In this document: in pieces, positions 3,170 to 52,605 of the stretch
How positions within the stretch are numbered: the stretch's first letter is position 1
Layout of the letters: every line of letters starts with the position of its first letter
NCBI GenBank assembly: GCA_014691105.1
Contig: GCA_014691105.1_4891.1
Strand: one strand, 5' to 3'
Length of the DNA stretch: 52,976 bases
Source of the DNA: a phage
Translations under genes and position numbers: made by a program
Notes under the pieces: model-generated
What the model was told of the DNA's origin: nothing
The model's input: only the letters and a program-made list of their open reading frames with translations
Databases searched by the model: none

Positions 3170-3796
3170 TTACTCTTCAGTTTCTTGTGCTTCAGTTTCA
3201 GGTTTTTTGCCAGTTACTGATTTGCCATCAGTCACTTTACCAGATTTTACATCATTACGGTAATAGGACATATAGGATTGGACAACACGTTTTGCCCTAA
3301 TATCATCCGCTTCCATCCCACAGGCTTTCATGGCATCGGCCAGCGCCAATTTGGAATCTTCTTTGTCCATCAAATTGTAGTCCTTGAATACTGCATAGCA
3401 GGTATCTTTGGTTGACGGACCGGATGAAGTTTTGCGGGTGCCACCAGCAGATGCTCGTGTTGTCGCAACTTTGACCTCTTCAACTTCCAGTTGGTTAAGC
3501 TCATCAAATAGGGCTTTCACCAGCACTTCTTTTGAGTCTTTGACACTTACAGAACTTTCATCATTAAGGGACTTAATCATCTTAATGATCTGGTTATTGG
3601 CAAAGTACTGCAGGCTATCCATCTGCACTACAATAGTCCCAAGACTTTCAGTAGTCAGACCAGATTTTACAGACTCGACAGAAAAAGCGGAAGTCAGGTA
3701 AACATAGTTGATAGTAGTCATTGATGTATCCTCGTCAATAGAATTTTGGTAAGCGCCAATCCCTGGCAAGTAAGTCCAAACATGACAACTTGACAA
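3170..3796 (-). CDS. hypothetical protein (up to 208 aa)
   Basis: ORF track; probable start at an internal Met (MTTINYVY...). Confidence 0.5.
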   Translation of the reverse strand: MSSCHVWTYLPGIGAYQNSIDEDTSMTTINYVYLTSAFSVESVKSGLTTESLGTIVVQMDSLQYFANNQIIKMIKSLNDESSVSVKDSKEVLVKALFDELNQLEVEEVKVATTRASAGGTRKTSSGPSTKDTCYAVFKDYNLMDKEDSKLALADAMKACGMEADDIRAKRVVQSYMSYYRNDVKSGKVTDGKSVTGKKPETEAQETEE

Positions 3797-3814
3797 AAGT
3801 TGTCATGATTGAAA

Positions 3815-3994
3815 TCACTTCAATTTGTTAAGTATTTTGGTCAATAGCTCAACTCTTTCTTCCTGGTCAGTAGGGTCAAAGTTTTCAATTGACTCCTTCC
3901 AGTCCTCCAGCAGTTCCTTTTCATTAAATATTGAAATGTCAAGAAATTCAACCAATAACTCAACTTCTTTTTTAGTCAATTTCAAATCTTTCAT
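3815..3994 (-). CDS. small early protein, paralogue family member 3 (59 aa, unlisted)
   Basis: Hand translation: MKDLKLTKKEVELLVEFLDISIFNEKELLEDWKESIENFDPTDQEERVELLTKILNKLK, preceded by a GAGGG-type RBS; the overlapping plus ORF 3825..4025 is low-complexity and probably spurious. Confidence 0.5.
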   Translation of the reverse strand: MKDLKLTKKEVELLVEFLDISIFNEKELLEDWKESIENFDPTDQEERVELLTKILNKLK

Positions 3995-4008
3995 CTTGTA
4001 TGACCCTC

Positions 4009-4212
4009 TTACCCTTGATATTTGACTACTTGCGACTGGATGAAATCAACACAATCTTCCACGTCCATTGATTCAAAATCTGGAACTGGTCCATTATTAA
4101 TGTTGACACACCATAGCCCTTCATTACAATCGTACCAAAGCGTATAGTTGTCTTTCATAATAGTTACTCCTGCTATTAGTTTCCAGGCGTGGCTACTGCT
4201 TCCAATAGCCAC
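4009..4212 (-). CDS. hypothetical small Cys-containing protein
   Basis: ORF track; likely start at internal Met (MKDNYTLWYDCNEG...) preceded by AGGAG. Confidence 0.4.
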   Translation of the reverse strand: MAIGSSSHAWKLIAGVTIMKDNYTLWYDCNEGLWCVNINNGPVPDFESMDVEDCVDFIQSQVVKYQG

Positions 4213-4518
4213 TAGTTGAAACTATTACCAGCGTTACTATCAACAAGAAACATGTTACCAAATTGTTAAAGAGCGGTCTGGTACTATTCGACCAGGTAAA
4301 GTTATTATTTGCGCATCTTGACGACACGCGCCAGACAAGACGCTTGACACATTCATCATTCGTCTTGATGTAATAATTATAGGCCAGTCAATCAATGTTG
4401 TACATAAAAGAATTGCAAGTTTATGCAAGTTTTTAGAAATGATAATCACTTGCGATTGAGAGTGGTTCTCATATGCAATTGATATAGTTTCACATGTAAT
4501 TACTCACTTCAAAATGGT

Positions 4519-4575
4519 CGGCAGGGGTTATAATCACATAGGGGTGCCACTTAAAGGAGCCGGCGAAATTATTTA
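4519..4575. repeat. copy 1 of a ~55-bp intergenic repeat (GGGGTTATAAT..AGGGGTGCCAC..AGGAGCCGGCGAAATT)
   Basis: Aligns at roughly 70% identity with 4693..4750 when read by eye; contains a perfect TATAAT. Confidence 0.6.
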
Positions 4576-4692
4576 TAAAAATATAATTTCAATCTGAATT
4601 ATAGACGCTTTGTGCTATAACGGCTGAAGTAGTTCATACGGTAATTGTATCAATCGCAATAGTTACCAGAGTAATCATTTCAATTGAAATAG

Positions 4693-4750
4693 GTGCGGCG
4701 GGGGGTAATTTCGCAGGGGTGCTACCTGCCAGGAGCCAGCGGAATTTTTT
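4693..4750. repeat. copy 2 of the intergenic repeat (GGGGGTAATTT..AGGGGTGCTAC..AGGAGCCAGCGGAATT)
   Basis: See copy 1; both lie in the divergent control region between the leftward and rightward early genes. Confidence 0.6.
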
Positions 4751-4967
4751 ATTTTTTCTCTATTTTCTCCTTATCAGGACCAATCATCATCAGAGTAACA
4801 CGGCAGGAGCTAACCTTTTGCTTATCACAATAATAAGTGAAGCCCCTCTAAAATTTTTTTATATTTTTCGGAAATTGTGTAGACACTCACTAAAAAGTGG
4901 TGTACTTTCTCTCCTCCACGCGCTATCATTAATGTGAATCATCAAACGGCCTCACGGTCTCCTACTT

Positions 4968-5456
4968 GTGGGTAACATTATGAAAATTGTTCAATTAGAG
5001 CCATATCCGCCTCAATTGGCTATCGTTTGCAGCGAAAAAGAGCACGAAGAGCTCCAAAAACTGATGGATTTGCCTGATTTTGGCAACTGGAATGACCGGG
5101 AAACACGTAATGCATCTACCTTTACATTCTCTCGCGTTAACTATCCGTACCTGTTAATCGTCGTCGAACTGTACCACCCGGACGACCTGAAGTACAACAC
5201 CATTTCCCACGAGGGCATTCACGTAATGTCGTCGCTGATGAACTATGTAGGGCTTAAATACGACCCAGAAAACGATGAATGGTACGCATATCAGCATGAT
5301 TTCATCGTAAATGCCATTTGTAAGGCCCATGACGAGTATATAGAGCGCCAAAAAACGCCAAAAACTAAGCCAAAAATAGAAACAGGTAACCATCCTGCAA
5401 TACTGCCACAAGACGTAATGAACTCGCTTTTGACTGACACTACTGGGGACTTTTAG
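4968..5456 (+). CDS. hypothetical protein with HExxH motif (possible zinc metallopeptidase-like)
   Basis: HEGIH motif in ISHEGIHVMSSL; first gene of the rightward block; start could be GTG 4968 or ATG 4980. Confidence 0.45.
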   Translation: MGNIMKIVQLEPYPPQLAIVCSEKEHEELQKLMDLPDFGNWNDRETRNASTFTFSRVNYPYLLIVVELYHPDDLKYNTISHEGIHVMSSLMNYVGLKYDPENDEWYAYQHDFIVNAICKAHDEYIERQKTPKTKPKIETGNHPAILPQDVMNSLLTDTTGDF

Positions 5457-6131
5457 GTGATTAATATAATCTTTGCAATGGGCCAAAATGGGGAATTCGG
5501 GTTGTCTCCGGAGTTTATGAAGCATCAGGTTAACTCGTGCAAGACCATGGAAGAGGTCCGTGCGCTTCCTAAATCGGGTCTGCCCTGGAAATGTCCGTCA
5601 GACATGCTCTTTTTCAGGACTATGACTAATTCAGTTGCGACAGAACCAGGCTATAATGCATATCAGCAACTACGTGGACAGTTCCCACAAGACCAGTTGC
5701 GAAACATGATAGCAGATGTAACGGTAAAAATGGTAGGACATAGTGTATTGTTAGCCGGTCGTAACACGTATATGACTATGAGTCTGCCTATGTCAGCCCA
5801 CAGAATACTGCTGCCGGTATCTCGCCAGATTATGGCTTCAGAAGGCTACAATAATTTGGGTGAGATGGCAGCAGACCTTGAATCCAGAGGTACTGACGTC
5901 TGGATTGTAGGCGGTGCCGAATTGATACTTTCGGCCCTTGAAGAACACGCAAAAGACTTACTCCGTATCGACAACATGTTTATCAGTACGATCAAGCAAT
6001 CAGGTCCAAGTGATATTTTAATGGATTGTAGCAAATTAATGATGTACATTGATAGCGACTTTACATATAATGATGAATATGTTGATAACAAACAAGTTCT
6101 GATACAACGGTACAGGAGTTTACATAAATGA
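5457..6131 (+). CDS. dihydrofolate reductase-like protein
   Basis: DHFR-like blocks IIFAMGQNGEFG, GLPWKCPSDMLFFRTMT, VLLAGRNTYMTMSLPMSAHRILLPVSR and VWIVGGAELI, with an insertion after the first strand. Confidence 0.55.
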   Translation: MINIIFAMGQNGEFGLSPEFMKHQVNSCKTMEEVRALPKSGLPWKCPSDMLFFRTMTNSVATEPGYNAYQQLRGQFPQDQLRNMIADVTVKMVGHSVLLAGRNTYMTMSLPMSAHRILLPVSRQIMASEGYNNLGEMAADLESRGTDVWIVGGAELILSALEEHAKDLLRIDNMFISTIKQSGPSDILMDCSKLMMYIDSDFTYNDEYVDNKQVLIQRYRSLHK

Positions 6132-6634
6132 ACATCATAATCGAGGGTCCGGATAATGCTGGTAAAACTACAGTTATTGAGTTCCTTAAATCTCATACTG
6201 GCCGCAGTGTTACTCATAATACTGTTGACAAAGATCCCGAATCGGTCATGGCTAAACAGACCAAAGAAAACGCGTTGGAAGGCGATTGTATTTATGACCG
6301 TAGCGCTGTTATATCTGAGTATATCTATTGTCTGGTTCTTCAACGTACGCCTGTCATCAATATTAATGTATCACATGTAGCAGATATGTGCGACAACGCC
6401 ATCGTTATCTTTTGTATGCCGCCTGTTGAAAAGGTACTGGCAACTACAAAAGACGAGATGCCTGGTGTTGTGGAAAATCTTGAGGCGTTATACAATCAGT
6501 ATGACAACCTCATTGACGAACTGGTTATGATGAGTAAGCAGTTCTTCATTTACGACTGGACTGTTGAAGAAGATGGTCCTGAAGCAGTTCTAGAATATAT
6601 CAACGAACGTATTAATAAGGAGTGGAACAAATGA
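6128..6634 (+). CDS. P-loop nucleoside/deoxynucleoside monophosphate kinase (thymidylate-kinase-like)
   Basis: P-loop GPDNAGKTT followed by a DRS motif (YDRSAVISEY); ATGA overlap with the DHFR stop. Confidence 0.5.
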   Translation: MNIIIEGPDNAGKTTVIEFLKSHTGRSVTHNTVDKDPESVMAKQTKENALEGDCIYDRSAVISEYIYCLVLQRTPVININVSHVADMCDNAIVIFCMPPVEKVLATTKDEMPGVVENLEALYNQYDNLIDELVMMSKQFFIYDWTVEEDGPEAVLEYINERINKEWNK

Positions 6635-7332
6635 GCCCAGTATACAATACCTCAGTCACGCTGTCCGCAACCGTAGGGGGCGTCAACAAGACTGTTACTG
6701 TGGGTTCAACTAACCCTAACCTATCAGGCGAAGACCTGTTGCGCATGGCTAAACGTGCTCTTGAAGATAACGAAGTGACTGGTACTGAAGGTGTCAGCAT
6801 TGAGATTAACATCGAGGGTTATGAAGAAAGCATCAGCATTGCTACTTCTGACGATGAAGCTTGTGAACAGCTAAAGTTCAACGATGAGCTGGAATATCGT
6901 ACCGGTGAGATGTTCAGCAGTGCGCTAAACTGGTACTTGTACAAGGCTTCAAACTACGCTGGCGCTCCTATGTCAGACCGTATGTTAGCTGACATGTCTG
7001 CACGTGAAATTGCTAAAGGCTGGGCGCATGTACAGATGCTGCAGGAGCGTATCTGCAAGCTGAAAAGCTGCAATAAAGACGCGTCTGAGCTTATTACTGC
7101 CTATAAGCGACAGATTAACGACCTGCAGCAACTGATGGGCAAACGCGCTGAAGAATATGAGGCTGAGATTCGCAGTCTTAACGGCACAGCTGTTGCTAAC
7201 AACCGTGCTTTCAGCGAAGAGCGTAAAGCGCTTATCGCCCAGCGTGACGCTGAAAAACGTCGTGCAGACGACCTGGCAGACCGTCTCAACTTTATCCGTA
7301 AGCATATGGATGCTATGGAAGGGGTAATCTGA
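6622..7332 (+). CDS. hypothetical protein (coiled-coil C-terminus)
   Basis: ORF track; start may be the Met at 6631. Confidence 0.5.
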   Translation: MEQMSPVYNTSVTLSATVGGVNKTVTVGSTNPNLSGEDLLRMAKRALEDNEVTGTEGVSIEINIEGYEESISIATSDDEACEQLKFNDELEYRTGEMFSSALNWYLYKASNYAGAPMSDRMLADMSAREIAKGWAHVQMLQERICKLKSCNKDASELITAYKRQINDLQQLMGKRAEEYEAEIRSLNGTAVANNRAFSEERKALIAQRDAEKRRADDLADRLNFIRKHMDAMEGVI

Positions 7333-40163: not shown

Positions 40164-40691
40164 TTATTCAGCAGCTTCTTCGTTGTCGCCTTCGATCGCG
40201 CCAGCCAGTTTAGCAGCTTCAGCTTTAGCAGCTTCTGCTTTCTGGCGAGCTTTTTCAGCTTTCTCTTCAGCTTTGCGAATCTGCTCAGCAGCTTTCGCTT
40301 CGGCTTTTTCAGCTTTGATGCGAGCACGCTCTTCAGCTTTACGCTGTTTTTCAGCGGCTTTAGCAGCATCGCGTTCTGCTTTAGCGGTATCAACACGCTT
40401 AGCCAGAACTTTACCAGTGGCTTTACGCCAGTAGGTCAGCTGGGAAGAAACAGTACCACGGGACATTTCGGTAGTGGCAACAACTTCGTCCATAACGTCA
40501 GAGCTGGACTTGCCTTCTTCATGGGCTTTATCAGCCAGGTCCCATACGTAACGTGCGCCAGTACCAGCTGCTGGATACAGTACGCCGTTAACTTCTTCTT
40601 TACCAGTTACAAAAGTCAGTTTCTCGCTCATAATTTTTTCCTCGTCTACAGGGCTTAATGTTTGTTCGTTACGTGAGTTAATATACGTCAT
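40164..40691 (-). CDS. KfrA-like DNA-binding protein with Ala/Lys/Glu-rich coiled-coil tail
   Basis: N-terminal SRGTVSSQLTYWRKATG resembles the KfrA N-terminal DNA-binding motif; C-terminus AKAERDAAKAAEKQRKAEERARIKAEKAEAKAAE; likely start at the internal Met near 40631. Confidence 0.4.
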   Translation of the reverse strand: MTYINSRNEQTLSPVDEEKIMSEKLTFVTGKEEVNGVLYPAAGTGARYVWDLADKAHEEGKSSSDVMDEVVATTEMSRGTVSSQLTYWRKATGKVLAKRVDTAKAERDAAKAAEKQRKAEERARIKAEKAEAKAAEQIRKAEEKAEKARQKAEAAKAEAAKLAGAIEGDNEEAAE

Positions 40692-40737: not shown

Positions 40738-40959
40738 CTAGAAAGGCACATCATAGTCAAAAAGTTTACATCCGGAAGACAGGACTGCCGGCGGTGGTGT
40801 TTTGCCTCCGGATAACAGGCAACCTCCTGCCTGAAAACTACGGCAGTTTGCACAGCTCATATCCTGCAAGTATATAATAAGCTGTCGGCGAACATGCCGT
40901 GGTAAAGCTTTAGCCTGGGTTGCTACCCGTTCAAATAGTTCTCTGTCATCGAGCGCCAT
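40738..40959 (-). CDS. hypothetical Cys-containing small protein
   Basis: ORF track. Confidence 0.4.
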   Translation of the reverse strand: MALDDRELFERVATQAKALPRHVRRQLIIYLQDMSCANCRSFQAGGCLLSGGKTPPPAVLSSGCKLFDYDVPF

Positions 40960-42616
40960 AGCCGTTTCCCCAGTCGTAGTTCATGATTTGTGGGTAGGGT
41001 CGTTTAATCCATACCTTGATGCGCTTAGGAATAGCCAGCTCACCCTTACGGCGAATAAACTCATCGCATGTTTCAGGCGGTTCTGTTCCTGCAGCATTAC
41101 GCCACCAGGCGTCTGCCATTTGCTTAGCATTACCATGGGCCTCTATATTTACCCATGTTGTATACACTTCCAGGTTTGAGTAGTACACAACCTTTATACT
41201 GTCAGGTCGTCCCTGCTTCTGGAATAAAGAATAGTTTACCAGCGTAACATCTTTATCCACAACACGAAGCTGACCGTTAGTCATTACCTCTTCTTCTGAT
41301 GAAGTGAAGGCAATAGCAGGTCCGTTAACTGTAAACTCAAACTCATGCCCGCACATCGGATATACACCATTCTCGTCCGGCGTACTTCCTTTAGCCGGAT
41401 GCTTACACGTACGGGCTGCATAACCACTTACCTGGTGGCAGATAGGGCACTCTTTACCGCCAGGTGTTTTCTCTGACCGTTTCTTTTTCTTCTTACCAAG
41501 ACGTGGCGGAACAGCCGGGTCATCAATAGGACCAAGGTCAATGGTGTTAGATGTAAAGTCCATGACAAGACAGTCATGCTTACCAGGCGCTGTACGTAAT
41601 CCTCGACCGAGTATCTGCACCCACAAAGCAACTGACGTGGACGGGCGCAAGATGCCGAGCATATCAATCTCAGGATAGTCAAATCCTGTCGTCAATACGT
41701 TTACGTTTACACAGACCCGTGCTCGTCCGCTTGTAAACTCTTCAAGTGCGGCTTCACGTTCTTTCTTTGTAAGACCGCCATGCACAACTACAGTCTGCCA
41801 ACCTCGCAGATTAAACTCGTCTGCTATGTTGTGGGCGTGCTCAACACTTGTGGCAAATACAAGAACGTGGTTCCTGTCTTTACCGTAGTGCATCATCTCA
41901 CGAATAGCCGCGACTGTTATACTATGTTGGTTGGCTACCTTCTCAAGCTCTGACGGGATGTAGTCACCCATCCTTTCACCAACATTACTGGTGTCAATCT
42001 TGGTTAACACTTTCTTGTTGACCAGGCGTGACAGGAAGCCTTCATTTACCAGTCTGGTAAAGGCGTCAGGTGTTGTAAGGTCGTAGCAGATGTCGGTAAA
42101 TATACCACAGTCCAGCAAGTGACCCCCTGCCAAGCGATATGGAGTTGCTGTGAGTCCTGTTACCTTTACCTTAGGATTAAGCTCTTTGAAGTGAGCAATA
42201 ACCTTACGGTATGTTGTTTCAGACTTCTCAGGAACAAGATGGGCTTCGTCAATGAATATAAGATTGAACTTACCTGCTTCTTCCAGGTTCTTAATGATTG
42301 ACTGTACTGATGCTACAACGATACGACCTGAAAAGTCTTTGTGTCCTGCACCTGAAGAGTAGATTGATACTGGTGCTTGTGGCCAGTGACGAACAATTGC
42401 TTTGGCGTCTTGCTCAACCAGCTCCTTGACGTGAGTCAGTATAAGAATACGCTGACGGGGATAGCTGGTAAGAATATCCTTCATCAGCATACCAAGCACA
42501 GGTGATTTGCCTGAACCTGTTGGCATGACAATAAGTGGATTACCACTATAAGAATTGAAGTACGACCACCAAGCTGTGACCGCTTCTTGTTGATACCAGC
42601 GAGCTTCAAAAGCCAT
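40946..42616 (-). CDS. SF2 DEAD/DEAH-box DNA helicase with C-terminal zinc-ribbon
   Basis: Motif I MPTGSGKS, motif II FIDEAHLV, motif III GLTATP, motif VI QILGRGLR; C-terminal CPICHQ...CKHP...CGHE cysteine cluster. Confidence 0.8.
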   Translation of the reverse strand: MAFEARWYQQEAVTAWWSYFNSYSGNPLIVMPTGSGKSPVLGMLMKDILTSYPRQRILILTHVKELVEQDAKAIVRHWPQAPVSIYSSGAGHKDFSGRIVVASVQSIIKNLEEAGKFNLIFIDEAHLVPEKSETTYRKVIAHFKELNPKVKVTGLTATPYRLAGGHLLDCGIFTDICYDLTTPDAFTRLVNEGFLSRLVNKKVLTKIDTSNVGERMGDYIPSELEKVANQHSITVAAIREMMHYGKDRNHVLVFATSVEHAHNIADEFNLRGWQTVVVHGGLTKKEREAALEEFTSGRARVCVNVNVLTTGFDYPEIDMLGILRPSTSVALWVQILGRGLRTAPGKHDCLVMDFTSNTIDLGPIDDPAVPPRLGKKKKKRSEKTPGGKECPICHQVSGYAARTCKHPAKGSTPDENGVYPMCGHEFEFTVNGPAIAFTSSEEEVMTNGQLRVVDKDVTLVNYSLFQKQGRPDSIKVVYYSNLEVYTTWVNIEAHGNAKQMADAWWRNAAGTEPPETCDEFIRRKGELAIPKRIKVWIKRPYPQIMNYDWGNGYGAR

Positions 42617-42674
42617 TTATCATCTCCTCATTAACTTTATATATTATACCACTTCCTTGTGATAAAGTATACTT

Positions 42675-43553
42675 TTATTTTAAGGAAAGTTTAACGGGCT
42701 TCTCATCCTGTGGGAAGACATCAGCGGGGCGATAATCATCACAAGCTGCTAATTGTTCTTCGATTGTTTCGAGCTCTTTCTGGTGCTTGTTGCAATACCA
42801 CACTTTGCCCTGAAGCGGTTTACTGTAATGGCAGGTTCTGCAGTTCCTGTCAGGCATTGCTCCTTTGTGGCACAAGTGGTGGTACTCACACATTCCTGGC
42901 TTGCACTCCCACCAGATAGGCGATTCAGAAATCTTCGGCATATCCAAACCAGATTCCGCATATACAACAGCCTCCGCTTTACTCAGTTGTATGTCGCTTT
43001 CCAGTAAGTCAATCTCGACCACTTCAAAATACATCTCGTCGGTGTTCTTGTTGATTGCAATATACACAGCTTGGTTAAGCTTAAGCTTCCGCATGTATAC
43101 CTGCATCTGGGCGTAGTGTACCGGCTTACTTGCTTTAACAGACTTGAGCTTGACTAACTCTTTAAACGACTTATCGCCATGCGTCTTGAATTCAGCAAGT
43201 GCCCATACGCCTTTGTATTTGATCACACAGTCACAAGACCCAGAGAAGATGCCATTGAATTCATGTATGCGCCATTGCTTACCAGTCTTAGGATTGACGT
43301 CCAGCACTTCGTCACATACTGAACGAAGCCACTTTATAATTCTGCTTTCTTCAAGGTTACCACGTTCAAACAGACGAAGTTGCTTAGCCGTAAACTTCTC
43401 CTTGAACGACCAGTGCAGTACATGCCAAAGATAGCGATAGCAGTTGTGCCCTATCTGCGATGCTCCAAGATGCCCGCGTCGTTCTTCTCTTTCGTGGGCT
43501 TCGACTATCTTGATGTCAATACGTTTCTGCAGGTCGTCAAACGGACTGGACAT
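42675..43553 (-). CDS. PD-(D/E)XK nuclease of the Cas4/RecB-like exonuclease family
   Basis: D...EFK core (CDCVIKYKGVWALAEFKT), QhxxY motif (YAQMQVY) and a C-terminal cysteine cluster; track ORF extends to 43670 but the Met at 43553 is the likely start. Confidence 0.6.
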   Translation of the reverse strand: MSSPFDDLQKRIDIKIVEAHEREERRGHLGASQIGHNCYRYLWHVLHWSFKEKFTAKQLRLFERGNLEESRIIKWLRSVCDEVLDVNPKTGKQWRIHEFNGIFSGSCDCVIKYKGVWALAEFKTHGDKSFKELVKLKSVKASKPVHYAQMQVYMRKLKLNQAVYIAINKNTDEMYFEVVEIDLLESDIQLSKAEAVVYAESGLDMPKISESPIWWECKPGMCEYHHLCHKGAMPDRNCRTCHYSKPLQGKVWYCNKHQKELETIEEQLAACDDYRPADVFPQDEKPVKLSLK

Positions 43554-44022
43554 TGTTAAACTCCTCAACACTGAATTCATCGTACACAATGTTATGTGCC
43601 CACAAATGAGCGACGGCATTTGCCATGCTATCCTTCCATTTGGATTGTGAAGCTGTATGCGCCAATGCAACTACACGTACCAGGCTAAGGTTGGCTATCA
43701 GCATGTCAGCACAATGTTCGCACGGCGGGTAGGTTATGTAGATGGTAACCGGGCCTAAAGAAGGAGTGTCTAACTCCCTCCTTATATTAGCTAAGGTGTT
43801 TATCTCGCTATGAATAGTTAGAGCGTTCTTGAGGCTATTAGGCACTATTCTTATAGAGTCTAACTGCGTAGGCAGACCGTTATATCCAGTGGAAATAATA
43901 CGCTTGTTCTGGTCAACAAGAACGCTACCGACTTGACGTTTCGGGTCCTTCGACCAGCTTGCAACTTCACAAGCTATGCGCATAAACCGCCTGTCCCACT
44001 TGTCCATCTTCTTCTTTTGCAT
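43537..44022 (-). CDS. dCMP deaminase
   Basis: Cytidine/dCMP deaminase zinc motifs HSE (LTIHSEINTL) and PCEHC (YPPCEHCADML). Confidence 0.8.
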   Translation of the reverse strand: MQKKKMDKWDRRFMRIACEVASWSKDPKRQVGSVLVDQNKRIISTGYNGLPTQLDSIRIVPNSLKNALTIHSEINTLANIRRELDTPSLGPVTIYITYPPCEHCADMLIANLSLVRVVALAHTASQSKWKDSMANAVAHLWAHNIVYDEFSVEEFNNVQSV

Positions 44023-44083
44023 GGTAGTCTCCGTATACGAAAATAGGGGCCGAAGCCCCTATTGAATATCTACTCGGCAGGGA

Positions 44084-44629
44084 TTATTCTTCCCAAGGAG
44101 CTGCTGCACCGTCATCAGCACCAGGTGCCGTTGCAGTAGCACTCGCCTTCGTTGAAGTACCCGCACCTGCACCTACTTTCTTCGTCGTCGATGCAGTTGC
44201 TTGAGAATGACCGCCTACTGCAGTAGTTGCTTCAGTTGACGCTTTGTATTCGCGAATATCGTTTTGTGGGTCGTACTCACCGGTCTTGTCGATACGAACA
44301 CCAACTTTACCAGCTACAATACGGTTTTCCAGTAAGTCGGTAGAAGTCAGTTCAACAATACCCAGCGCACGACACAGCGCAGACAGTTTGCGATGACCGA
44401 TTTCAACAGCTTGTGCATTAGGGTTGGAGTAGGTAATCATGTCAAATACAACACGGTTAGCGAACTCACCTTCCTGCACTTTCAGACGCAGGGACAGGTA
44501 AGAACCAGTGCCTGCTTTAGTCGGCTTCAGCTCAACCTCTTCAATCATGAAGTTGTACCAGCCTTTCGGGATCGGGTCAAAAGACTGTTGCGGTTCGACG
44601 GTAGAGCTGTTGAAGTTTAATTCAGCCAT
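44084..44629 (-). CDS. Sak4-associated protein, possible ssDNA-binding protein
   Basis: Adjacent to the Sak4-like ATPase; low-complexity Ala/Thr/Gly acidic tail; family assignment tentative. Confidence 0.35.
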   Translation of the reverse strand: MAELNFNSSTVEPQQSFDPIPKGWYNFMIEEVELKPTKAGTGSYLSLRLKVQEGEFANRVVFDMITYSNPNAQAVEIGHRKLSALCRALGIVELTSTDLLENRIVAGKVGVRIDKTGEYDPQNDIREYKASTEATTAVGGHSQATASTTKKVGAGAGTSTKASATATAPGADDGAAAPWEE

Positions 44630-44736
44630 TGTTTGGTATCCTGTTTAAGTTTAGTTTAATTTCGTTTAACGCTTTACCGGCAGCGTTCGGCCGTGATGCT
44701 TATTATACGCCACTTTTTATCATGGCGTAAACACTT

Positions 44737-45621
44737 TTATTCGCTGGTTCCTTTCTCAGCTTGAGCGGCTTTCTTCGCCATCCAGGCTTGGTGCTTCTCT
44801 TTCGATTCGTCCGAACCGATTTTAGTGAGCTGCACGTTCGGGTCGTCGTTCTGCATCTGTTCTGCAGCTCGACCTGTCAGGAGCAGGTAGCTGTCTGACT
44901 CCGGATGATAGTACCACAGCTGGTAAGGATGATAGCCTTGCAGCTTGTCATAAATCCAGCCCAGGTCTGCAGGTTCACGTGCATCCAGCTCACGACCTGG
45001 TGCGTTACGGCACTTAGCTTCCCATTGGTAGTCAGGCTGGGTCTGAATGTAGCGCTCGCTGTTACCGTTGGCGTCAGGCGCAGTCATACGTAAAGCAAGT
45101 ACCGCATCCATCAGGTACGGCAACTGCTTAGGTAGCTGTTGGCCAGGCATAAGAGGTGAGTACAGCATTGCACCAGTAACCTCGTCCTTGTTCTTCTCAA
45201 GCTTGCACAGGTATGCAACGCTGAAAGGCAAGTCACGGAACTGACGCATGATATACATCATCTTGTCGTTGGTGTTACCATACGCCTGTCGTTTGTCATT
45301 AACCTGTGACTTCTCGTAGTCCAGACAAACTTCAGCCACATCTGACAGCGAATCGAAAATCAGATGCTCATACTTCTGCGCATCCTTACTTTCGGTAAGC
45401 CATTTGTACAGCGCCAGAATGTCGTTGAACGTATTGATTGGTGTAGAGTCGATGTCAGCGTCTGCAATCGACATCAAACCGCCTTCAGCGTTAATGACAA
45501 GAACCTTATCGTGAGGCAAGGTCTTAGCCAGGCTGGTTTTACCAACACCTGATGCGCCGTAAATAGCGACCTTAGGTCGCTTATTTTCTACGGCTTGTTT
45601 AGTAGATACAATCTGAACCAT
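44737..45621 (-). CDS. Sak4-like RecA-fold ATPase (AAA_24-type recombination protein)
   Basis: N-terminal KVAIYGASGVGKTSLAKTL...VLVINAEGG matches the Sak4/AAA_24 Walker A context. Confidence 0.65.
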   Translation of the reverse strand: MVQIVSTKQAVENKRPKVAIYGASGVGKTSLAKTLPHDKVLVINAEGGLMSIADADIDSTPINTFNDILALYKWLTESKDAQKYEHLIFDSLSDVAEVCLDYEKSQVNDKRQAYGNTNDKMMYIMRQFRDLPFSVAYLCKLEKNKDEVTGAMLYSPLMPGQQLPKQLPYLMDAVLALRMTAPDANGNSERYIQTQPDYQWEAKCRNAPGRELDAREPADLGWIYDKLQGYHPYQLWYYHPESDSYLLLTGRAAEQMQNDDPNVQLTKIGSDESKEKHQAWMAKKAAQAEKGTSE

Positions 45622-49763: not shown

Positions 49764-50096
49764 ATGATAAAGCCAAAACTGTTGCGGCATATTCGCAACG
49801 GTATTAAGCTACTCGCTGAAGGCAATGAGTATGCCTGCAAGCAACGCGGTATTACAAAAGTCGGCCTGTTCAATAAAGAGTTACCAACTCGCTACTTTAC
49901 CAAATCACCACTAACACTCGTACCTGCAGCGGAGTATTATAAAGACCCCGAAGCAGCCAGGGCTAAAATCAAGGAAGGTCTTGACCGACTTGTAGAGGAA
50001 GGCTATTTGACAGTACGTCAACACACTGAATCATCTTATTACTACAAGCCAACTTCTAAGGTAACCAGCAATGACAATGACGAGTCAGCCGAGTGA
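49764..50096 (+). CDS. hypothetical protein
   Basis: ORF track; overlaps the primase start. Confidence 0.45.
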   Translation: MIKPKLLRHIRNGIKLLAEGNEYACKQRGITKVGLFNKELPTRYFTKSPLTLVPAAEYYKDPEAARAKIKEGLDRLVEEGYLTVRQHTESSYYYKPTSKVTSNDNDESAE

Positions 50097-52605
50097 TATT
50101 CTCGGTCTGAAATACTTTAAGCCAGAAGGGATTCCCCAAGTCTTCAAAGATATGAAGCGCTGGGCTATCTTTGAGCTGACGTACGAAGACGAGACCCTCG
50201 AAGTTCAATCCAAACCTAAGAAACCTGCAAGAGCGCCATCAGGCCGTTCCTTCAGCACAACAGTGCCTGAAGAGTGGATGACTTTCGACGACGCCCTGAC
50301 ACGTTGTATCCGCAATCGTGAAATGAAGATTAAAGCTGTACAGGGTAACATCACCTTTGTGCCGGCTTTGATTGTTCCTCGCCAGTGGTACTTTGTTGAC
50401 CTGGACAACCATGATGATAATCCAGACATTGAAGCTACCCACAAAGCGATAATTGAGGGGACTCGTGGCGCTTATGCTGAGACGTCAATCTCCGGCAAAG
50501 GGCAACACATTGCAATCCCTTTACCCTGGACTGCAGCAACATCCAAAGAGAAAGACGAACAGCTGGACATCAAAATCCAGAAGGCTGAGATGTTCCTGGT
50601 AATGACAGGCAATGTATTGAGCGAGTTCAATGCTAATCCTGTTTCAGCCCGTGAATGGCATGCAGCAATTGAGAAGTTCTTTCTTGAATCAAGCGCACCT
50701 GACATTGATGTTGAGTTTGAGCAAGACGAAGACCGTGGCGAAGAGTATGACAAAGAGCTATACGAACAGTTAGCCGACAATACTCGCTGGGCGCTTGAAC
50801 ATTATCTTAGCGACTATGCACCAGACGGTGTTGGTGTGAGTAATGACGGTTCCGAACGTTTAAGCCGCATACTCAAAGACTTGCTTCGTGTAACCCGTAA
50901 CTATGAAGTTACACAACGCATCTTCATGGCCAGCAAAGCTGCAGCATATGAAGGCCGCAGACCAAGTCGACATAACCTGTCTGTTGATAAGTATCATCAG
51001 TGGTTCAGTCGTGTCGGTAAGACTGTGCTGAAAGAGATGCAACGTGACGGCTTATTCGTTAAGACCAAGTTTGCTCTTGACATCAACAAAGAGTTAGCCA
51101 AGAATTCAGGTGTCTCCCTGGCTGAGAACGTTGAGTTCAAGGTCAACGACGACATTCTGCCTTCTGATGTATTCGTCAGGACGGCCCCGTCCGGGTTTAA
51201 ACGGCTTATTGCTGAGATACAGGATAACATATCTCCTGCTAACAGGGTTAACGACTATGCCATCGGCACAGCTCTTAACATCCTGAGCAACTGCGCCGGT
51301 CGCAAGTATGTTTGTCCAGTAGGCGGTCATGCTAACTTCCTGGTAACCAACATCATTCTTGTGGGTGGTTCATCAATCGGTAAATCCCTGTATACCGAAA
51401 TGTTCCCACAAATCCAGGCAAGTTTACCTGACACATCACCTATCAGTCTTAACCGTATCCCAAGGGAACAGACTTTTGCAACCAGGACGTTTGCTGAACT
51501 GATGTCCAACCCGTCATACCATTCAGTTCAGTTGTTCTATCCTGAATTTGGTCTGGCTTTAGGTTCAGGCTTACGCATGAATCCTAACAACCCGGACAAC
51601 TTTCAGAAAGCTCTGATGGACGCTTCAACCAAGCGTAAGGTTGGCGGTATACTGACAGGTATCAAACGTGCTAATGCTGACAATGATGTCAAGACAGTAA
51701 GTGAACCGTGTTACTCTATCCTGGGTGACTCAACTCAAGAGCTTATCCTTGACAACACCCGGAAGCAAGACTTCTCAAGTGGCTTTTTGCCCCGCTTCCT
51801 GTTCATCCCGAACTACGAACGAGCGGAGTTTGCCAAACCTGAGAAGGTAGGACGTCGCCAGCAGATTCGCCGTACGTCCTTTTCAAAAGAACTGATTGAG
51901 AAGCTGGAAGCAATCGCTTATGTGAATGCTATCCCGCCTAACGGTAAACTAAGGCACGACCCGATTCCTATTTACGATGAGTCGGACGATGATGACTTCC
52001 TGTACGAGTACCAGTGCAATATTAATGATATGCGCCAGTATTACAGGGACAACGAAGTAGCGTCTGCCTTTGTGGGCCGAATGGGTGAGTATGTATTCAA
52101 TATAGCAGCACTGATTGGCTTACTCGACAACTGGGATGCTCCTGTAATGACCAGGGACAACATCGAATGGGCTTACAAATATGTTCTTCGTTGTATAACT
52201 GCCTGGGTCAATAACACAAGCAGGATAGTCGCACCACCAACTACCAACGCCGAAGTAGTGGACGGCTTCCTCAAAGTCTACAGGGACATTTTGGCCCTTT
52301 ACACCAAAAGAGGATGGTCTGGCATAGTCAAGCATTATCCTGAAGGTGTTGTAAGAAGCTTACGGGAAGACCATCTGAAAATGAACGGGCTTAGCATATA
52401 TGCTATCCGGCAATCATTAAGTTGGTTCAAATCCAATTACGGCTTTAACATAACCGCTAATAACAAGGTTATTGACGGTATGTTGCAGGATATGATTGAC
52501 CAGGACTATTTAGCAGTCCAAATATACAAACCCACAAGAGGGAAATCGGCAAATATCTACTGTTTAACCGAACGGGGATACGACGAAGCCAAGAAACTTA
52601 AGTAA
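50071..52605 (+). CDS. bifunctional primase-polymerase (AEP) fused to an SF3 helicase
   Basis: AEP motif I WYFVDLDNHDD and motif II SISGKGQHIAIPL in the N-terminal third; Walker A LVGGSSIGKS in the C-terminal half. Confidence 0.75.
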   Translation: MTMTSQPSDILGLKYFKPEGIPQVFKDMKRWAIFELTYEDETLEVQSKPKKPARAPSGRSFSTTVPEEWMTFDDALTRCIRNREMKIKAVQGNITFVPALIVPRQWYFVDLDNHDDNPDIEATHKAIIEGTRGAYAETSISGKGQHIAIPLPWTAATSKEKDEQLDIKIQKAEMFLVMTGNVLSEFNANPVSAREWHAAIEKFFLESSAPDIDVEFEQDEDRGEEYDKELYEQLADNTRWALEHYLSDYAPDGVGVSNDGSERLSRILKDLLRVTRNYEVTQRIFMASKAAAYEGRRPSRHNLSVDKYHQWFSRVGKTVLKEMQRDGLFVKTKFALDINKELAKNSGVSLAENVEFKVNDDILPSDVFVRTAPSGFKRLIAEIQDNISPANRVNDYAIGTALNILSNCAGRKYVCPVGGHANFLVTNIILVGGSSIGKSLYTEMFPQIQASLPDTSPISLNRIPREQTFATRTFAELMSNPSYHSVQLFYPEFGLALGSGLRMNPNNPDNFQKALMDASTKRKVGGILTGIKRANADNDVKTVSEPCYSILGDSTQELILDNTRKQDFSSGFLPRFLFIPNYERAEFAKPEKVGRRQQIRRTSFSKELIEKLEAIAYVNAIPPNGKLRHDPIPIYDESDDDDFLYEYQCNINDMRQYYRDNEVASAFVGRMGEYVFNIAALIGLLDNWDAPVMTRDNIEWAYKYVLRCITAWVNNTSRIVAPPTTNAEVVDGFLKVYRDILALYTKRGWSGIVKHYPEGVVRSLREDHLKMNGLSIYAIRQSLSWFKSNYGFNITANNKVIDGMLQDMIDQDYLAVQIYKPTRGKSANIYCLTERGYDEAKKLK

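What the first reader, a model, noticed from the sequence alone, without database searches (positions are those of the whole stretch)
40946..45621. Recombination/repair module: SF2 helicase, Cas4-like nuclease, dCMP deaminase, Sak4-associated protein and Sak4-like ATPase
A DEAH helicase with zinc-ribbon, a PD-(D/E)XK nuclease with QhxxY motif and cysteine cluster, and a Sak4-type RecA-fold ATPase are co-oriented and tightly packed. The unusual partner is the Cas4/RecB-like nuclease rather than a lambda-exo or RecE-type enzyme. dCMP deaminase is embedded in the same operon.
Basis: partly seen in the sequence, partly recalled or inferred. Interest (0 to 1): 0.5.

Follow-up and report, generated by a model that had tools for sequence, protein, structure and literature searches.

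The report
Known phage recombination and replication gene cassette
This is the standard, already-annotated set of recombination genes (annealing ATPase, single-strand-binding protein, end-chewing nuclease, RadD-type helicase) of a BP63-like Salmonella/E. coli phage, so the gene calls are right but the combination is ordinary rather than unusual.

Summary
Five co-oriented, tightly packed minus-strand genes lie at 40946-45621, and profile, motif and fold tests support every assignment.

The window is a Rosemountvirus (BP63-like myovirus). RefSeq already annotates the orthologous genes BP63 gp61-65 with the same names.

The claim that a Cas4-type nuclease is an unusual partner for Sak4 fails:
- The order Sak4, DUF669 SSB, variable slot, Cas4-domain exonuclease, SF2 helicase recurs in Nonagvirus, Septimatrevirus (including phage 73, whose Sak4 was tested in vivo in 2010), Kleczkowskavirus and Titanvirus.
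- Among 80 metagenomic viral loci with the nuclease, Sak4 lies upstream in 52/52, DUF669 in 55/56, and the helicase downstream in 43/54 informative loci.
- The exonuclease/Sak4 pairing was proposed as a conserved recombination system in 2012.

Refinements:
- The helicase is a RadD-family protein lacking the second zinc finger.
- The "Sak4-associated protein" is the DUF669 SSB.
- The dCMP deaminase is a lineage-specific insert in the cassette's variable slot.

One side observation may be new. A sixth gene (orf73, 40738-40959) encodes a small Cys4 protein ending in DVPF, like the bacterial SSB C-terminal tip. In related cassettes this tail sits on the nuclease, the helicase or such a small protein, never on two.

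The parts
44737..45621 (-). Sak4-like core-only RecA/Rad51-fold ATPase (294 aa). It is the predicted ssDNA-annealing recombinase.
   Evidence: PF13479 AAA_24 at 99.6 bits against a cut-off of 27, residues 15-205. phrog_124 'Sak4-like ssDNA annealing protein' E 2.6e-51. Walker A GASGVGKT and Walker B LIFD. 27.5% identity, E 6e-22, to the Sak4 of Pseudomonas phage 73, which was tested in vivo (PMC2896510). Weak direct hit (E 0.079, residues 12-209) to the solved Sak4 of phage 52A, PDB 8RC5. About 60-90 C-terminal residues lie outside the family profile.
44084..44629 (-). DUF669 single-strand DNA-binding protein (181 aa). It has a low-complexity linker and a C-terminal tip ...DDGAAAPWEE.
   Evidence: PF05037 DUF669 at 52.2 bits against a cut-off of 21. 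phrog_6015 and phrog_378 'single strand DNA binding protein'. Lies directly downstream of Sak4, as is described for up to 80% of sak4 genes (PMC5928155). A 'P-W' tip is shared by nearly all DUF669 proteins of related cassettes.
43537..44022 (-). dCMP deaminase (161 aa). A nucleotide-metabolism enzyme sitting in the cassette's variable slot.
   Evidence: PF00383 at 75.9 bits. phrog_174 E 3e-37. HxE at residue 71 and PCxxC at residue 100. No homologue in any of the 80 related IMG/VR loci. Other phages have unrelated genes at this position.
42675..43553 (-). Cas4-domain (RecB-like PD-(D/E)XK, iron-sulfur type) exonuclease (292 aa) with an extra C-terminal Cys4 module.
   Evidence: phrog_1990 E 1.5e-101. 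Invariant D108, E121, K123, Q149, Y153 and C38/C217/C222/C228, plus a second invariant set C238/C241/C254/C271. AlphaFold2 model with pLDDT 95.6. Best solved-structure matches are Cas4 SSO0001 and Pcal_0546 (E about 1e-6), then alkaline exonuclease, MGME1, lambda exonuclease and RecE.
40946..42616 (-). RadD-family SF2 helicase/translocase (556 aa): two RecA-like domains, one Cys4 zinc ribbon and a RadD-like C-terminal domain. It lacks RadD's second zinc finger.
   Evidence: PDB RadD 6jde E 1.2e-62 over residues 1-403. NCBIfam RadD model E 1.4e-86 but 291 bits, below the 720-bit cut-off. Profile alignment to E. coli RadD runs end to end with 31% identity and E 5e-72. The Foldseek top eight hits are all RadD (E 4e-37); the next hit is at 1e-16. 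Helicase motifs and C390/C393/C404/C422 are invariant.
40738..40959 (-). orf73: a small Cys4 protein (73 aa) ending in ...FDYDVPF.
   Evidence: phrog_23504, unknown function, E 1.9e-34. The gene overlap is shown. It has significant matches to small proteins encoded right after the helicase in other loci (E 3e-6 to 1e-3). Profile-profile match to the nuclease's C-terminal Cys4 module: 94% probability, E 9e-8, against E 0.03 for a reversed control.
44702..44731 (-). Promoter-like site (TTTACG, 18 nt, TATAAT) in the 107-nt gap between Sak4 and the SSB gene.
   Evidence: Consensus scan gives 10 of 12 matches. BP63's depositors annotated a promoter at the equivalent place. The number of such sites in the region is not above chance (9 found against 10.1 expected), so this is only a lead.

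Best explanation
The region is the recombination half of the phage's DNA replication module. It is a conserved cassette that lets a virulent Rosemountvirus repair, circularise and replicate its DNA by single-strand annealing and recombination-dependent replication, without relying on host RecA/RecBCD.

Proposed sequence of events:
1. The Cas4-domain iron-sulfur PD-(D/E)XK exonuclease resects double-stranded ends to expose single strands.
2. The DUF669 SSB coats the single strands.
3. The Sak4 core-only RecA-fold ATPase anneals complementary strands, helped by the SSB's C-terminal tip.
4. The RadD-family helicase acts on the resulting branched intermediates, by analogy with E. coli RadD. RadD accelerates RecA strand exchange and is stimulated by the SSB C-terminus.
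5. The 3' ends are extended by the family-A DNA polymerase and clamp encoded a few kb downstream, with the divergently transcribed primase supplying primers.

The dCMP deaminase is not part of the machine. Together with the nearby thymidylate synthase and the MazG-like pyrophosphohydrolase it feeds dTTP synthesis. It simply occupies a slot of the cassette that holds different genes in different phages.

Shown here: gene identities, motifs, folds, conserved order and co-orientation.
Shown elsewhere for relatives: in vivo annealing activity of phage 73 and HK620 Sak4, stimulation by the cognate SSB tail, and a requirement of Sak4 for phage replication in S. aureus.
Inferred: nuclease polarity, the helicase's role, and every physical interaction.
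For: Gene identities.

Prior annotation: the window is 97-98% identical to Rosemountvirus genomes, and BP63 gp61-65 carry the same annotation.

Conserved order: Sak4, SSB, variable slot, Cas4 nuclease, helicase lie between a divergent primase and clamp plus DNA polymerase in SE1, DLP2, RHEph06, RcSpartan and phage 73. All four core proteins, and the primase, are detectably homologous to those of phage 73.

Co-occurrence in 80 IMG/VR loci: DUF669 upstream 55/56, Sak4-like upstream 52/52 with an iterated profile, helicase downstream 43/54.

Context in the window: family-A DNA polymerase with 3'-5' exonuclease, and a primase with a weak DUF3987 helicase-like region; thymidylate synthase.

Literature:
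- Phage 73 Sak4 promotes oligonucleotide annealing in vivo (PMC2896510).
- HK620 Sak4 annealing is stimulated by its DUF669-type SSB through the SSB's last six residues (PMC5928155).
- Sak4 is reported as required for phage replication in S. aureus (PMC5499656, title only).
- RadD accelerates RecA strand exchange and binds the SSB C-terminus (PMC8887467, abstract; PMC10238739).
- The exonuclease plus Sak4 pairing was proposed as a conserved recombination system (PMC3483164).
Against: No protein of this phage genus has been tested.

Our Sak4 and SSB show no significant pairwise or profile similarity to the biochemically studied HK620 proteins. The link runs only through family profiles and the phage 73 orthologue, whose measured activity was only 2- to 4-fold above background.

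E. coli RadD has no demonstrated stand-alone helicase activity, and its partner is full-length RecA, not a core-only Sak4. The phage protein lacks zinc finger 2, which is genetically important in RadD (PMC9049331). Only one of RadD's three SSB-pocket arginines has a conserved basic equivalent in the phage family, namely K151.

The helicase is missing downstream of the nuclease in 11 of 54 informative loci. It is therefore a less constant partner than Sak4 and the SSB.

The promoter-like sites inside the cluster are not above chance, so transcription as a single operon is not established.
Confidence: 0.75

Rival explanations
1. The cassette is replication machinery proper, not a recombination system. 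On this view the SF2 protein is the fork or origin-opening helicase, and Sak4 is an AAA-type loader or accessory ATPase. DUF669 would be the replicative SSB, and the Cas4-like nuclease would process primers or flaps in a Dna2-like manner.
For: The cassette always sits inside the replication module, between the primase and the clamp plus DNA polymerase. Depositors originally annotated the phage 73 Sak4 as 'putative helicase'. Iron-sulfur PD-(D/E)XK nucleases include Dna2 and Exo5, which appear among the fold matches.
Against: The primase is an 844-aa protein with a helicase-like DUF3987 region, and its relatives are annotated as primase/helicase. A replicative helicase is therefore probably already present. 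The closest relative of the SF2 protein by a wide margin is the repair protein RadD. Sak4 family members have measured annealing activity. The two views partly merge if replication is recombination-dependent.
Confidence: 0.14
2. The nuclease and helicase form a host-DNA degradation or anti-restriction unit. This unit would supply nucleotides, which would explain the neighbouring dCMP deaminase, thymidylate synthase and pyrophosphohydrolase genes.
For: Nucleotide-metabolism genes lie in and next to the cluster. For phage 9g, a nuclease-helicase role in restriction or host DNA recycling has been suggested (PMC5567051).
Against: The nuclease is accompanied by Sak4 and an SSB in essentially every informative locus, whereas the deaminase is found in none of the 80 loci. 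Most related cassettes have no nucleotide-metabolism gene in the slot. The nuclease fold groups with the recombination exonucleases lambda Exo, RecE and alkaline exonuclease.
Confidence: 0.07
3. The Cas4 homologue interferes with or exploits host CRISPR spacer acquisition, as proposed for Campylobacter phages that carry a Cas4-like gene.
For: The fold and motifs are Cas4-like. Phage Cas4-like proteins have been linked to host-derived spacer acquisition (PMC4283603, title and abstract).
Against: No cas1, cas2 or CRISPR array lies in the window or in any related locus examined. The constant partners are recombination proteins. From general knowledge, the type I-E systems of Salmonella and E. coli do not use Cas4.
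Confidence: 0.02

Closest known systems
Salmonella phage BP63 gp61-gp65 (RefSeq NC_031250) and other Rosemountvirus genomes
   Same: 97-98% nucleotide identity across the whole region. Same genes in the same order, already named DEAD/DEAH box helicase, Cas4-domain exonuclease, deoxycytidylate deaminase, single strand DNA binding protein and Sak4-like ssDNA annealing protein.
   Different: Nothing of substance. The window is another isolate of the same genus.
Pseudomonas phage 73 (PA73) ORF029-ORF032, with the same cassette in Burkholderia phage KL1 (Septimatrevirus and relatives)
   Same: Same order (Sak4, SSB, Cas4-domain exonuclease, SF2 helicase) between the primase and the clamp plus polymerase. 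Sequence homology to phage 73 is 27.5% for Sak4, 32% for the SSB, 30% for the nuclease and 36.5% for the helicase. Its Sak4 was tested in vivo, and the exonuclease/Sak4 pair was proposed as a recombination system.
   Different: No dCMP deaminase in the slot. A different small gene follows the helicase, and it has no PF tail. It is a siphovirus of Pseudomonas.
Phage HK620 recombination module (HkaM, Sak4/HkaL, SSB/HkaK, Abc2)
   Same: A Sak4-family ATPase followed by a DUF669-type SSB whose C-terminal tip stimulates annealing.
   Different: HK620 has no nuclease or helicase of its own and instead modifies host RecBCD through Abc2. There is no detectable pairwise or profile similarity to the window's proteins. 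The HK620 SSB tip is NDYPPF, whereas ours is APWEE.
Lambda Red (Exo/Beta) and RecET
   Same: The logic is the same: a 5'-3' end-resecting PD-(D/E)XK exonuclease is paired with an ssDNA annealing protein. The nuclease fold is related (lambda Exo E 2e-5, RecE E 4e-4).
   Different: The annealing protein here is RecA-fold (Sak4), not Rad52-fold. The nuclease carries an iron-sulfur-type cysteine set and an extra Cys4 module. A dedicated SSB and a RadD-type helicase are also part of the set.
E. coli RadD with RecA and SSB
   Same: Two RecA-like domains, zinc ribbon ZF1 and the C-terminal domain align end to end at 31% identity. RadD is the best structural match. RadD works with a RecA-fold recombinase and binds the SSB C-terminus.
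   Different: The phage protein lacks ZF2. It scores below the NCBIfam equivalog cut-off. The SSB-pocket arginines R21 and R49 are not conserved. Its presumed partner is a core-only RecA homologue.

Membership tests
Sak4 (core-only RecA/Rad51-like phage recombinase; Pfam AAA_24) | Match to the family profile above the curated threshold | tested here: met
   PF13479 at 99.6 bits against a cut-off of 27. phrog_124 E 2.6e-51.
Sak4 (core-only RecA/Rad51-like phage recombinase; Pfam AAA_24) | [quoted passage not shown] | tested here: met
   GASGVGKT (residues 22-29) and HLIFD (residues 86-90).
Sak4 (core-only RecA/Rad51-like phage recombinase; Pfam AAA_24) | Small size with no extra domain (Lopes et al. 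2010 used a limit of under 290 aa) | tested here: inconclusive
   The protein is 294 aa. The family match ends at about residue 205-231, which leaves a C-terminal extension of 60-90 aa that matches no family. The criterion comes from PMC2896510. Orthologues in other genera are 227-248 aa.
Sak4 (core-only RecA/Rad51-like phage recombinase; Pfam AAA_24) | Adjacent cognate SSB gene | tested here: met
   The DUF669 gene lies 107 nt downstream. The association is described in PMC5928155.
Sak4 (core-only RecA/Rad51-like phage recombinase; Pfam AAA_24) | Single-strand annealing activity | not testable with these tools
   Activity has been measured only for relatives: phage 73 and HK620.
Cas4 / RecB-like iron-sulfur PD-(D/E)XK nucleases | Catalytic D, E-x-K and QhxxY motifs | tested here: met
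   D108, E121, K123, Q149 and Y153 are invariant in 50 homologues.
Cas4 / RecB-like iron-sulfur PD-(D/E)XK nucleases | One N-terminal plus three C-terminal cysteines (the iron-sulfur cluster ligands) | tested here: met
   C38, C217, C222 and C228 are invariant. Spacing here is C-x4-C-x5-C, whereas the family consensus is C-x2-C-x5-C. Presence of a cluster itself was not tested.
Cas4 / RecB-like iron-sulfur PD-(D/E)XK nucleases | Match to the Pfam Cas4/PDDEXK_1 models above threshold | tested here: not met
   The only hit is PDDEXK_3 at 17.3 bits, below its cut-off of 22. Some homologues carry precomputed PF12705 hits.
Cas4 / RecB-like iron-sulfur PD-(D/E)XK nucleases | Fold closest to solved Cas4 structures | tested here: met
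   Model pLDDT is 95.6. Top Foldseek hits are 4ic1 and 4r5q, E about 1e-6, with TM-score 0.57-0.60 normalised to the target. Lambda Exo-type nucleases follow closely.
Cas4 / RecB-like iron-sulfur PD-(D/E)XK nucleases | Association with cas1/cas2 and a CRISPR array (for a true CRISPR Cas4) | tested here: not met
   No cas genes lie in the annotated neighbourhoods. It is Cas4-like, not a CRISPR component.
RadD (bacterial SF2 DNA repair helicase) | Two RecA-like domains with the SF2 motifs, and best sequence and fold match to RadD | tested here: met
RadD (bacterial SF2 DNA repair helicase) | Two tandem zinc fingers, ZF1 and ZF2 | tested here: not met
   Only the ZF1 equivalent is present (C390/C393/C404/C422). 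The RadD 434-451 region has no counterpart.
RadD (bacterial SF2 DNA repair helicase) | RadD-type C-terminal domain | tested here: inconclusive
   hhalign extends through the C-terminal domain to RadD residue 573, and Foldseek aligns about 600 columns. Similarity there is low, and inter-domain rmsd is about 21 A.
RadD (bacterial SF2 DNA repair helicase) | NCBIfam equivalog score cut-off | tested here: not met
   291 bits against a cut-off of 720.
RadD (bacterial SF2 DNA repair helicase) | SSB C-terminus pocket framed by R21, R49 and R145 | tested here: inconclusive
   The equivalents are N21 (a variable column), R54 (a variable column) and K151 (K or R in 44 of 48 homologues). The hydrophobic F20 is conserved.
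DUF669 phage SSB | Family profile match and position next to Sak4 | tested here: met
   PF05037 at 52.2 bits against a cut-off of 21. phrog_6015 and phrog_378 SSB. Synteny in 55/56 loci.
DUF669 phage SSB | ssDNA binding, and stimulation of Sak4 through the C-terminal tip | not testable with these tools
   This is shown only for HK620. Here there is a conserved 'P-W' tip after a low-complexity linker.
dCMP deaminase (cytidine/deoxycytidylate deaminase fold) | Family profile match and the zinc-binding HxE and PCxxC motifs | tested here: met
   PF00383 at 75.9 bits. HxE at residue 71 and PCxxC at residue 100.

The most novel reading that the evidence does not exclude
The cassette may be a self-contained six-part machine held together by short C-terminal 'handles'.

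One handle is an SSB-C-terminus-like tail with the pattern acidic residue, I/V/P, P, F. In this phage it sits on the small Cys4 protein orf73. In other phages it is fused to the RadD-like helicase or to the Cas4-like nuclease. It would dock either into the helicase's RadD-type SSB pocket or into the host's SSB-client proteins. In that way the phage nuclease/helicase would be recruited to SSB-binding hubs, or would compete with the host SSB there. The DUF669 SSB would use a different 'P-W' tip for Sak4.

If this is right, a RadD-type motor works with a core-only RecA homologue, and phages mimic the bacterial SSB tail. I found neither idea in the literature searches made here.
Probability: 0.2. 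Interest if true: 0.55.

Novelty: already known. Interest (0 to 1): 0.2.

Why it matters
As submitted, the finding adds nothing new. The genes carry the same names in RefSeq, the cassette is widespread, and the nuclease/Sak4 pairing was discussed more than a decade ago.

Its practical value is limited. It confirms that the window is a typical Rosemountvirus replication-recombination module, and it could be cloned for recombineering tests.

Two refinements may interest people who work on phage recombination:
- The helicase is a RadD homologue. This suggests a testable parallel between RadD/RecA/SSB in E. coli and helicase/Sak4/DUF669 in phages.
- A bacterial-SSB-like C-terminal tail moves between the nuclease, the helicase and a small zinc-finger protein in this cassette family. 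This points to an undescribed protein-protein contact.

Tried and rejected
1. Apparent Cas4-helicase fusion in locus L011. On reading the ORFs it is an artefact. A long open frame in high-GC DNA overlaps the true nuclease gene, which is read in another frame. It therefore gives no evidence that the two proteins are ever fused.

2. Direct link to the biochemically characterised HK620 proteins. BLASTP and hhalign found nothing significant for Sak4 or the SSB. HK620 Sak4 only just passes AAA_24 (30 bits), and the HK620 SSB does not hit DUF669 at E 0.01 or better in this Pfam release.

3. The idea that the PF tail is a sliding-clamp-binding motif. The phage DNA polymerase, clamp and primase have no similar C-terminus, and only DUF669 and orf73 carry P-[FW] tails among real genes in the window. 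The idea is not supported, though it is not excluded.

4. Operon structure from promoter and terminator scans. Counts were at chance level, 9 against 10.1 and 8 against 7.2. These are leads only.

5. Sequence searches of solved structures with the nuclease, the SSB and Sak4 gave no useful hits except a weak match to 8RC5.

6. A word-based homologue search with orf73 found only three near-identical proteins. Its wider family had to be found locally in the fetched loci.

7. Rfam and tRNA scans of the whole window found nothing.

8. NCBIfam gave a partial hit of the deaminase to an 'anti-phage dCTP deaminase' model. It covers only 44 residues of the shared deaminase fold and scores 42 bits against a cut-off of 400, so it was rejected as a family assignment.

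Full report
**What is there**

The region 40946-45621 holds five minus-strand genes, each with an ATG start and a Shine-Dalgarno-like sequence:
- a 556-aa helicase (40946-42616);
- a 292-aa nuclease (42675-43553, counted from the ATG that the RefSeq orthologue uses, not the upstream TTG);
- a 161-aa dCMP deaminase (43537-44022);
- a 181-aa DUF669 protein (44084-44629);
- a 294-aa AAA_24 ATPase (44737-45621).

Spacing between them is 58, -17, 61 and 107 nt. No terminator-like hairpin lies on the coding strand.

Pfam supports four of the five above its curated thresholds: ResIII, Helicase_C, dCMP_cyt_deam_1, DUF669 and AAA_24. PHROGs supports all five, including 'Cas4-domain exonuclease' at E 1.5e-101 and 'Sak4-like ssDNA annealing protein' at E 2.6e-51.

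**Where the window comes from**

The region is 97.9% identical to Escherichia phage CF2 and 97.8% identical to Salmonella phage BP63. More than 40 further phage records match at 95% identity or above.

In RefSeq NC_031250 (Rosemountvirus BP63), the orthologues gp61-gp65 are already named:
- DEAD/DEAH box helicase;
- Cas4-domain exonuclease;
- deoxycytidylate deaminase;
- single strand DNA binding protein;
- Sak4-like ssDNA annealing protein.

The cluster sits inside the early/middle leftward transcription unit. To one side lies a divergently transcribed 844-aa primase. To the other lie a MazG-like pyrophosphohydrolase, thymidylate synthase, a clamp-like 'DNA polymerase beta subunit' and a family-A DNA polymerase.

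**Testing the nuclease assignment**

The only hit is PDDEXK_3 at 17.3 bits, below its threshold. I therefore tested the assignment in other ways.
- An alignment of 50 homologues shows invariant D108, E121-x-K123 and Q149-x3-Y153. It also shows the 1+3 cysteine set typical of iron-sulfur RecB-family nucleases: C38, C217, C222 and C228.
- An AlphaFold2 model built from that alignment is confident, with pLDDT 95.6.
- Its best matches among solved structures are the Cas4 proteins SSO0001 and Pcal_0546 (E about 1e-6). Alkaline exonuclease, MGME1, lambda exonuclease, Cas4-Cas1-Cas2 complexes and RecE follow.

The protein is therefore Cas4-like in fold and motifs. [quoted passage not shown]

A second invariant set of four cysteines (C238, C241, C254, C271) forms an extra C-terminal module that canonical Cas4 lacks.

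**Refining the helicase**

The helicase is not a generic DEAH protein.
- Its N-terminal 400 residues match E. coli RadD at E 1.2e-62.
- The NCBIfam RadD model gives E 1.4e-86, but 291 bits is below the 720-bit equivalog cut-off.
- A profile of 48 homologues aligns with E. coli RadD from end to end at 31% identity and E 5e-72.
- The eight best Foldseek hits for the model (pLDDT 84.5) are all RadD at E about 1e-36. The next hit is at 1e-16.

The phage protein keeps the first zinc ribbon (C390/C393/C404/C422, invariant). It lacks the second zinc finger described for RadD (PMC9049331).

RadD is a RecA accessory protein that accelerates strand exchange (PMC8887467, abstract). Its ATPase is stimulated by the SSB C-terminus through a pocket framed by R21, R49 and R145 (PMC10238739). 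In the phage family only the R145 equivalent (K151) and the hydrophobic F20 are conserved.

**The other three genes**

*DUF669 protein.* The 'Sak4-associated protein' is a DUF669 SSB. Hutinet et al. showed that the HK620 protein of this type is a genuine SSB, and that its last six residues stimulate Sak4 annealing. They also reported that up to 80% of sak4 genes lie next to an ssb gene (PMC5928155).

*Sak4.* The Sak4 assignment is strong at the profile level. The protein is 27.5% identical (E 6e-22) to the Sak4 of Pseudomonas phage 73, which gave weak but significant annealing activity in vivo. It shows no detectable similarity to HK620 Sak4 by BLASTP or hhalign. It also carries an unexplained C-terminal extension of 60-90 residues.

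*Deaminase.* The deaminase has the HxE and PCxxC zinc motifs and is an ordinary dCMP deaminase.

**Is the combination unusual? No**

The same order recurs in several distant genera: Sak4, SSB, a variable slot, Cas4-domain exonuclease, SF2 helicase. These are Nonagvirus SE1, Septimatrevirus DLP2 and phage 73, Kleczkowskavirus RHEph06 and Titanvirus RcSpartan. In most of them the cassette lies between a divergent primase and the clamp plus polymerase genes.

The nuclease has homologues in 414 phage records. I fetched 80 IMG/VR loci that encode a nuclease homologue of 37-46% identity and searched their ORFs:
- A DUF669 gene lies upstream on the same strand in 55 of 56 loci with enough sequence.
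- A Sak4-like gene lies upstream in 52 of 52, using a profile iterated from the first hits. It is always 1-3 kb upstream, in an ORF of 225-363 codons.
- The RadD-like helicase lies downstream in 43 of 54.

None of the 80 loci has a dCMP deaminase. Other phages have unrelated small genes in that slot. The deaminase is therefore a lineage-specific insert, shared with the related Loughboroughvirus ZCSE2 (PMC7232530).

The literature had already made the point:
- Lopes et al. 2010 found exonucleases next to Sak4.
- Lynch et al. 2012 proposed the exonuclease and Sak4-like recombinase of phage 73, KL1 and BcepGomr as a conserved recombination system.

**Most likely mechanism**

1. The nuclease resects DNA ends.
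2. The DUF669 SSB coats the exposed strands.
3. Sak4 anneals complementary strands with help from the SSB tip.
4. The RadD-like motor processes the branched products.
5. The nearby polymerase, clamp and primase extend the 3' ends.

This amounts to recombination-dependent replication and repair.

Gene identities and synteny are shown here. Annealing activity and SSB stimulation are shown only for relatives. Nuclease polarity, the helicase's role and all contacts are inferred. The main rival, that this is replication machinery proper, overlaps with this view. It is weakened by the helicase-like region in the primase and by the RadD identity of the SF2 protein.

**A side observation that may be new**

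A 73-aa gene, orf73 (40738-40959), overlaps the helicase stop codon by 14 nt. It encodes a Cys4 protein with the pattern C-x2-C-x7-C-x16-C, ending in ...FDYDVPF. This resembles the bacterial SSB C-terminal tip DDDIPF (quoted).

*Relatives of orf73.* Similar small proteins follow the helicase in other loci (E 3e-6 to 1e-3). Their profile matches the nuclease's own C-terminal Cys4 module at 94% probability and E 9e-8, against E 0.03 for a reversed control.

*How specific the tail is.*
- Only 37 of the 12,732 ORFs of 35 codons or more in the 80 loci end in an acidic residue followed within two positions by [IVLPCM]-P-F.
- Eleven of these are the nuclease's own C-terminus.
- Six are the helicase's own C-terminus.
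- Fourteen are a small ORF directly after the helicase.

*Mutual exclusivity.* In 44 loci with full information, the tail is on exactly one of these three proteins in 25 and never on two. A looser pattern would add about seven more loci.

*Independent sample.* Twenty of 48 helicase homologues from the large protein database end in DD[DI]IPF-like tails. E. coli RadD does not.

*The SSB tip differs.* The DUF669 SSBs of these cassettes end instead in a 'P-W' tip.

I found no description of this pattern in the searched literature. It suggests that nuclease, helicase and small protein act at one place through a shared docking peptide. The partner is unknown.

**Verdict**

The claimed oddity, a Cas4-type nuclease with Sak4, is the rule for this cassette. 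The finding deserves a low score. The RadD identity and the wandering SSB-like tail are modest leads for follow-up.

Noticed in passing
window 40738-40959 (minus strand); related loci L005, L018, L032, L040, L045, L056, L059, L065, L076, L085: orf73 is a small Cys4 protein that overlaps the helicase stop codon and ends in FDYDVPF, which resembles the bacterial SSB C-terminal tip DDDIPF. In related cassettes such a tail sits on the Cas4-like nuclease, on the RadD-like helicase or on a small post-helicase protein. In 44 fully informative loci it was on exactly one of these in 25 and never on two.
   Followed up: partly
window 42675-42845 (nuclease residues about 232-275) and window 40738-40959: The nuclease carries a second invariant Cys4 module (C238, C241, C254, C271) that canonical Cas4 lacks. 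A profile-profile comparison suggests it is homologous to the stand-alone orf73-type proteins (94% probability, E 9e-8).
   Followed up: partly
window 44084-44120 (C-terminus of the DUF669 protein); DUF669 genes in L003-L006, L090 and the IMG/VR loci: Almost all DUF669 SSBs of this cassette type end in a short 'P-W' tip after an Ala/Gly/Ser/Pro-rich linker. Examples are APWEE here, PPWRRA, LPWKRQA, KKPWEK and AAPWGQR. This differs from the PF tip of bacterial and HK620 SSBs.
   Followed up: partly
window 44737-44930 (about the last 60-90 residues of the Sak4-like protein): The Sak4 homologue is 294 aa, against 227-248 aa in other genera. The extra C-terminal stretch (…YHPYQLWYYHPESDSY…KEKHQAWMAKKAAQAEKGTSE) matches no family.
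   Followed up: no
L002 (Salmonella phage UPF_BP2, NC_048649), locus 3475-7014: In this Rosemountvirus record the nuclease and Sak4 genes are each split into two CDSs. No deaminase is annotated, and the matching stretch is about 590 nt longer and aligns in three pieces. This could reflect sequencing errors or real insertions.
   Followed up: no
window 40164-40691 (minus strand): A 175-aa protein of unknown function (phrog_28664) has a long Lys/Ala/Glu-rich, probably helical, C-terminal half (…AKAAEKQRKAEERARIKAEKAEAKAAEQIRKAEEKAEKARQKAEAAKAEAAK…). It lies just downstream of the cassette.
   Followed up: no
window 50071-52605 (plus strand): The 844-aa 'primase' has only a weak, sub-threshold DUF3987 (helicase-like) match in Pfam. 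It is 23% identical to the phage 73 primase, and it probably combines primase and replicative helicase functions.
   Followed up: no
L003 (Nonagvirus SE1), L005 (Kleczkowskavirus RHEph06): In phages that modify their DNA with 7-deazaguanines, the same cassette lies next to QueE-like and other queuosine-pathway genes. In RHEph06 a DUF165 gene occupies the slot that holds the dCMP deaminase here.
   Followed up: no
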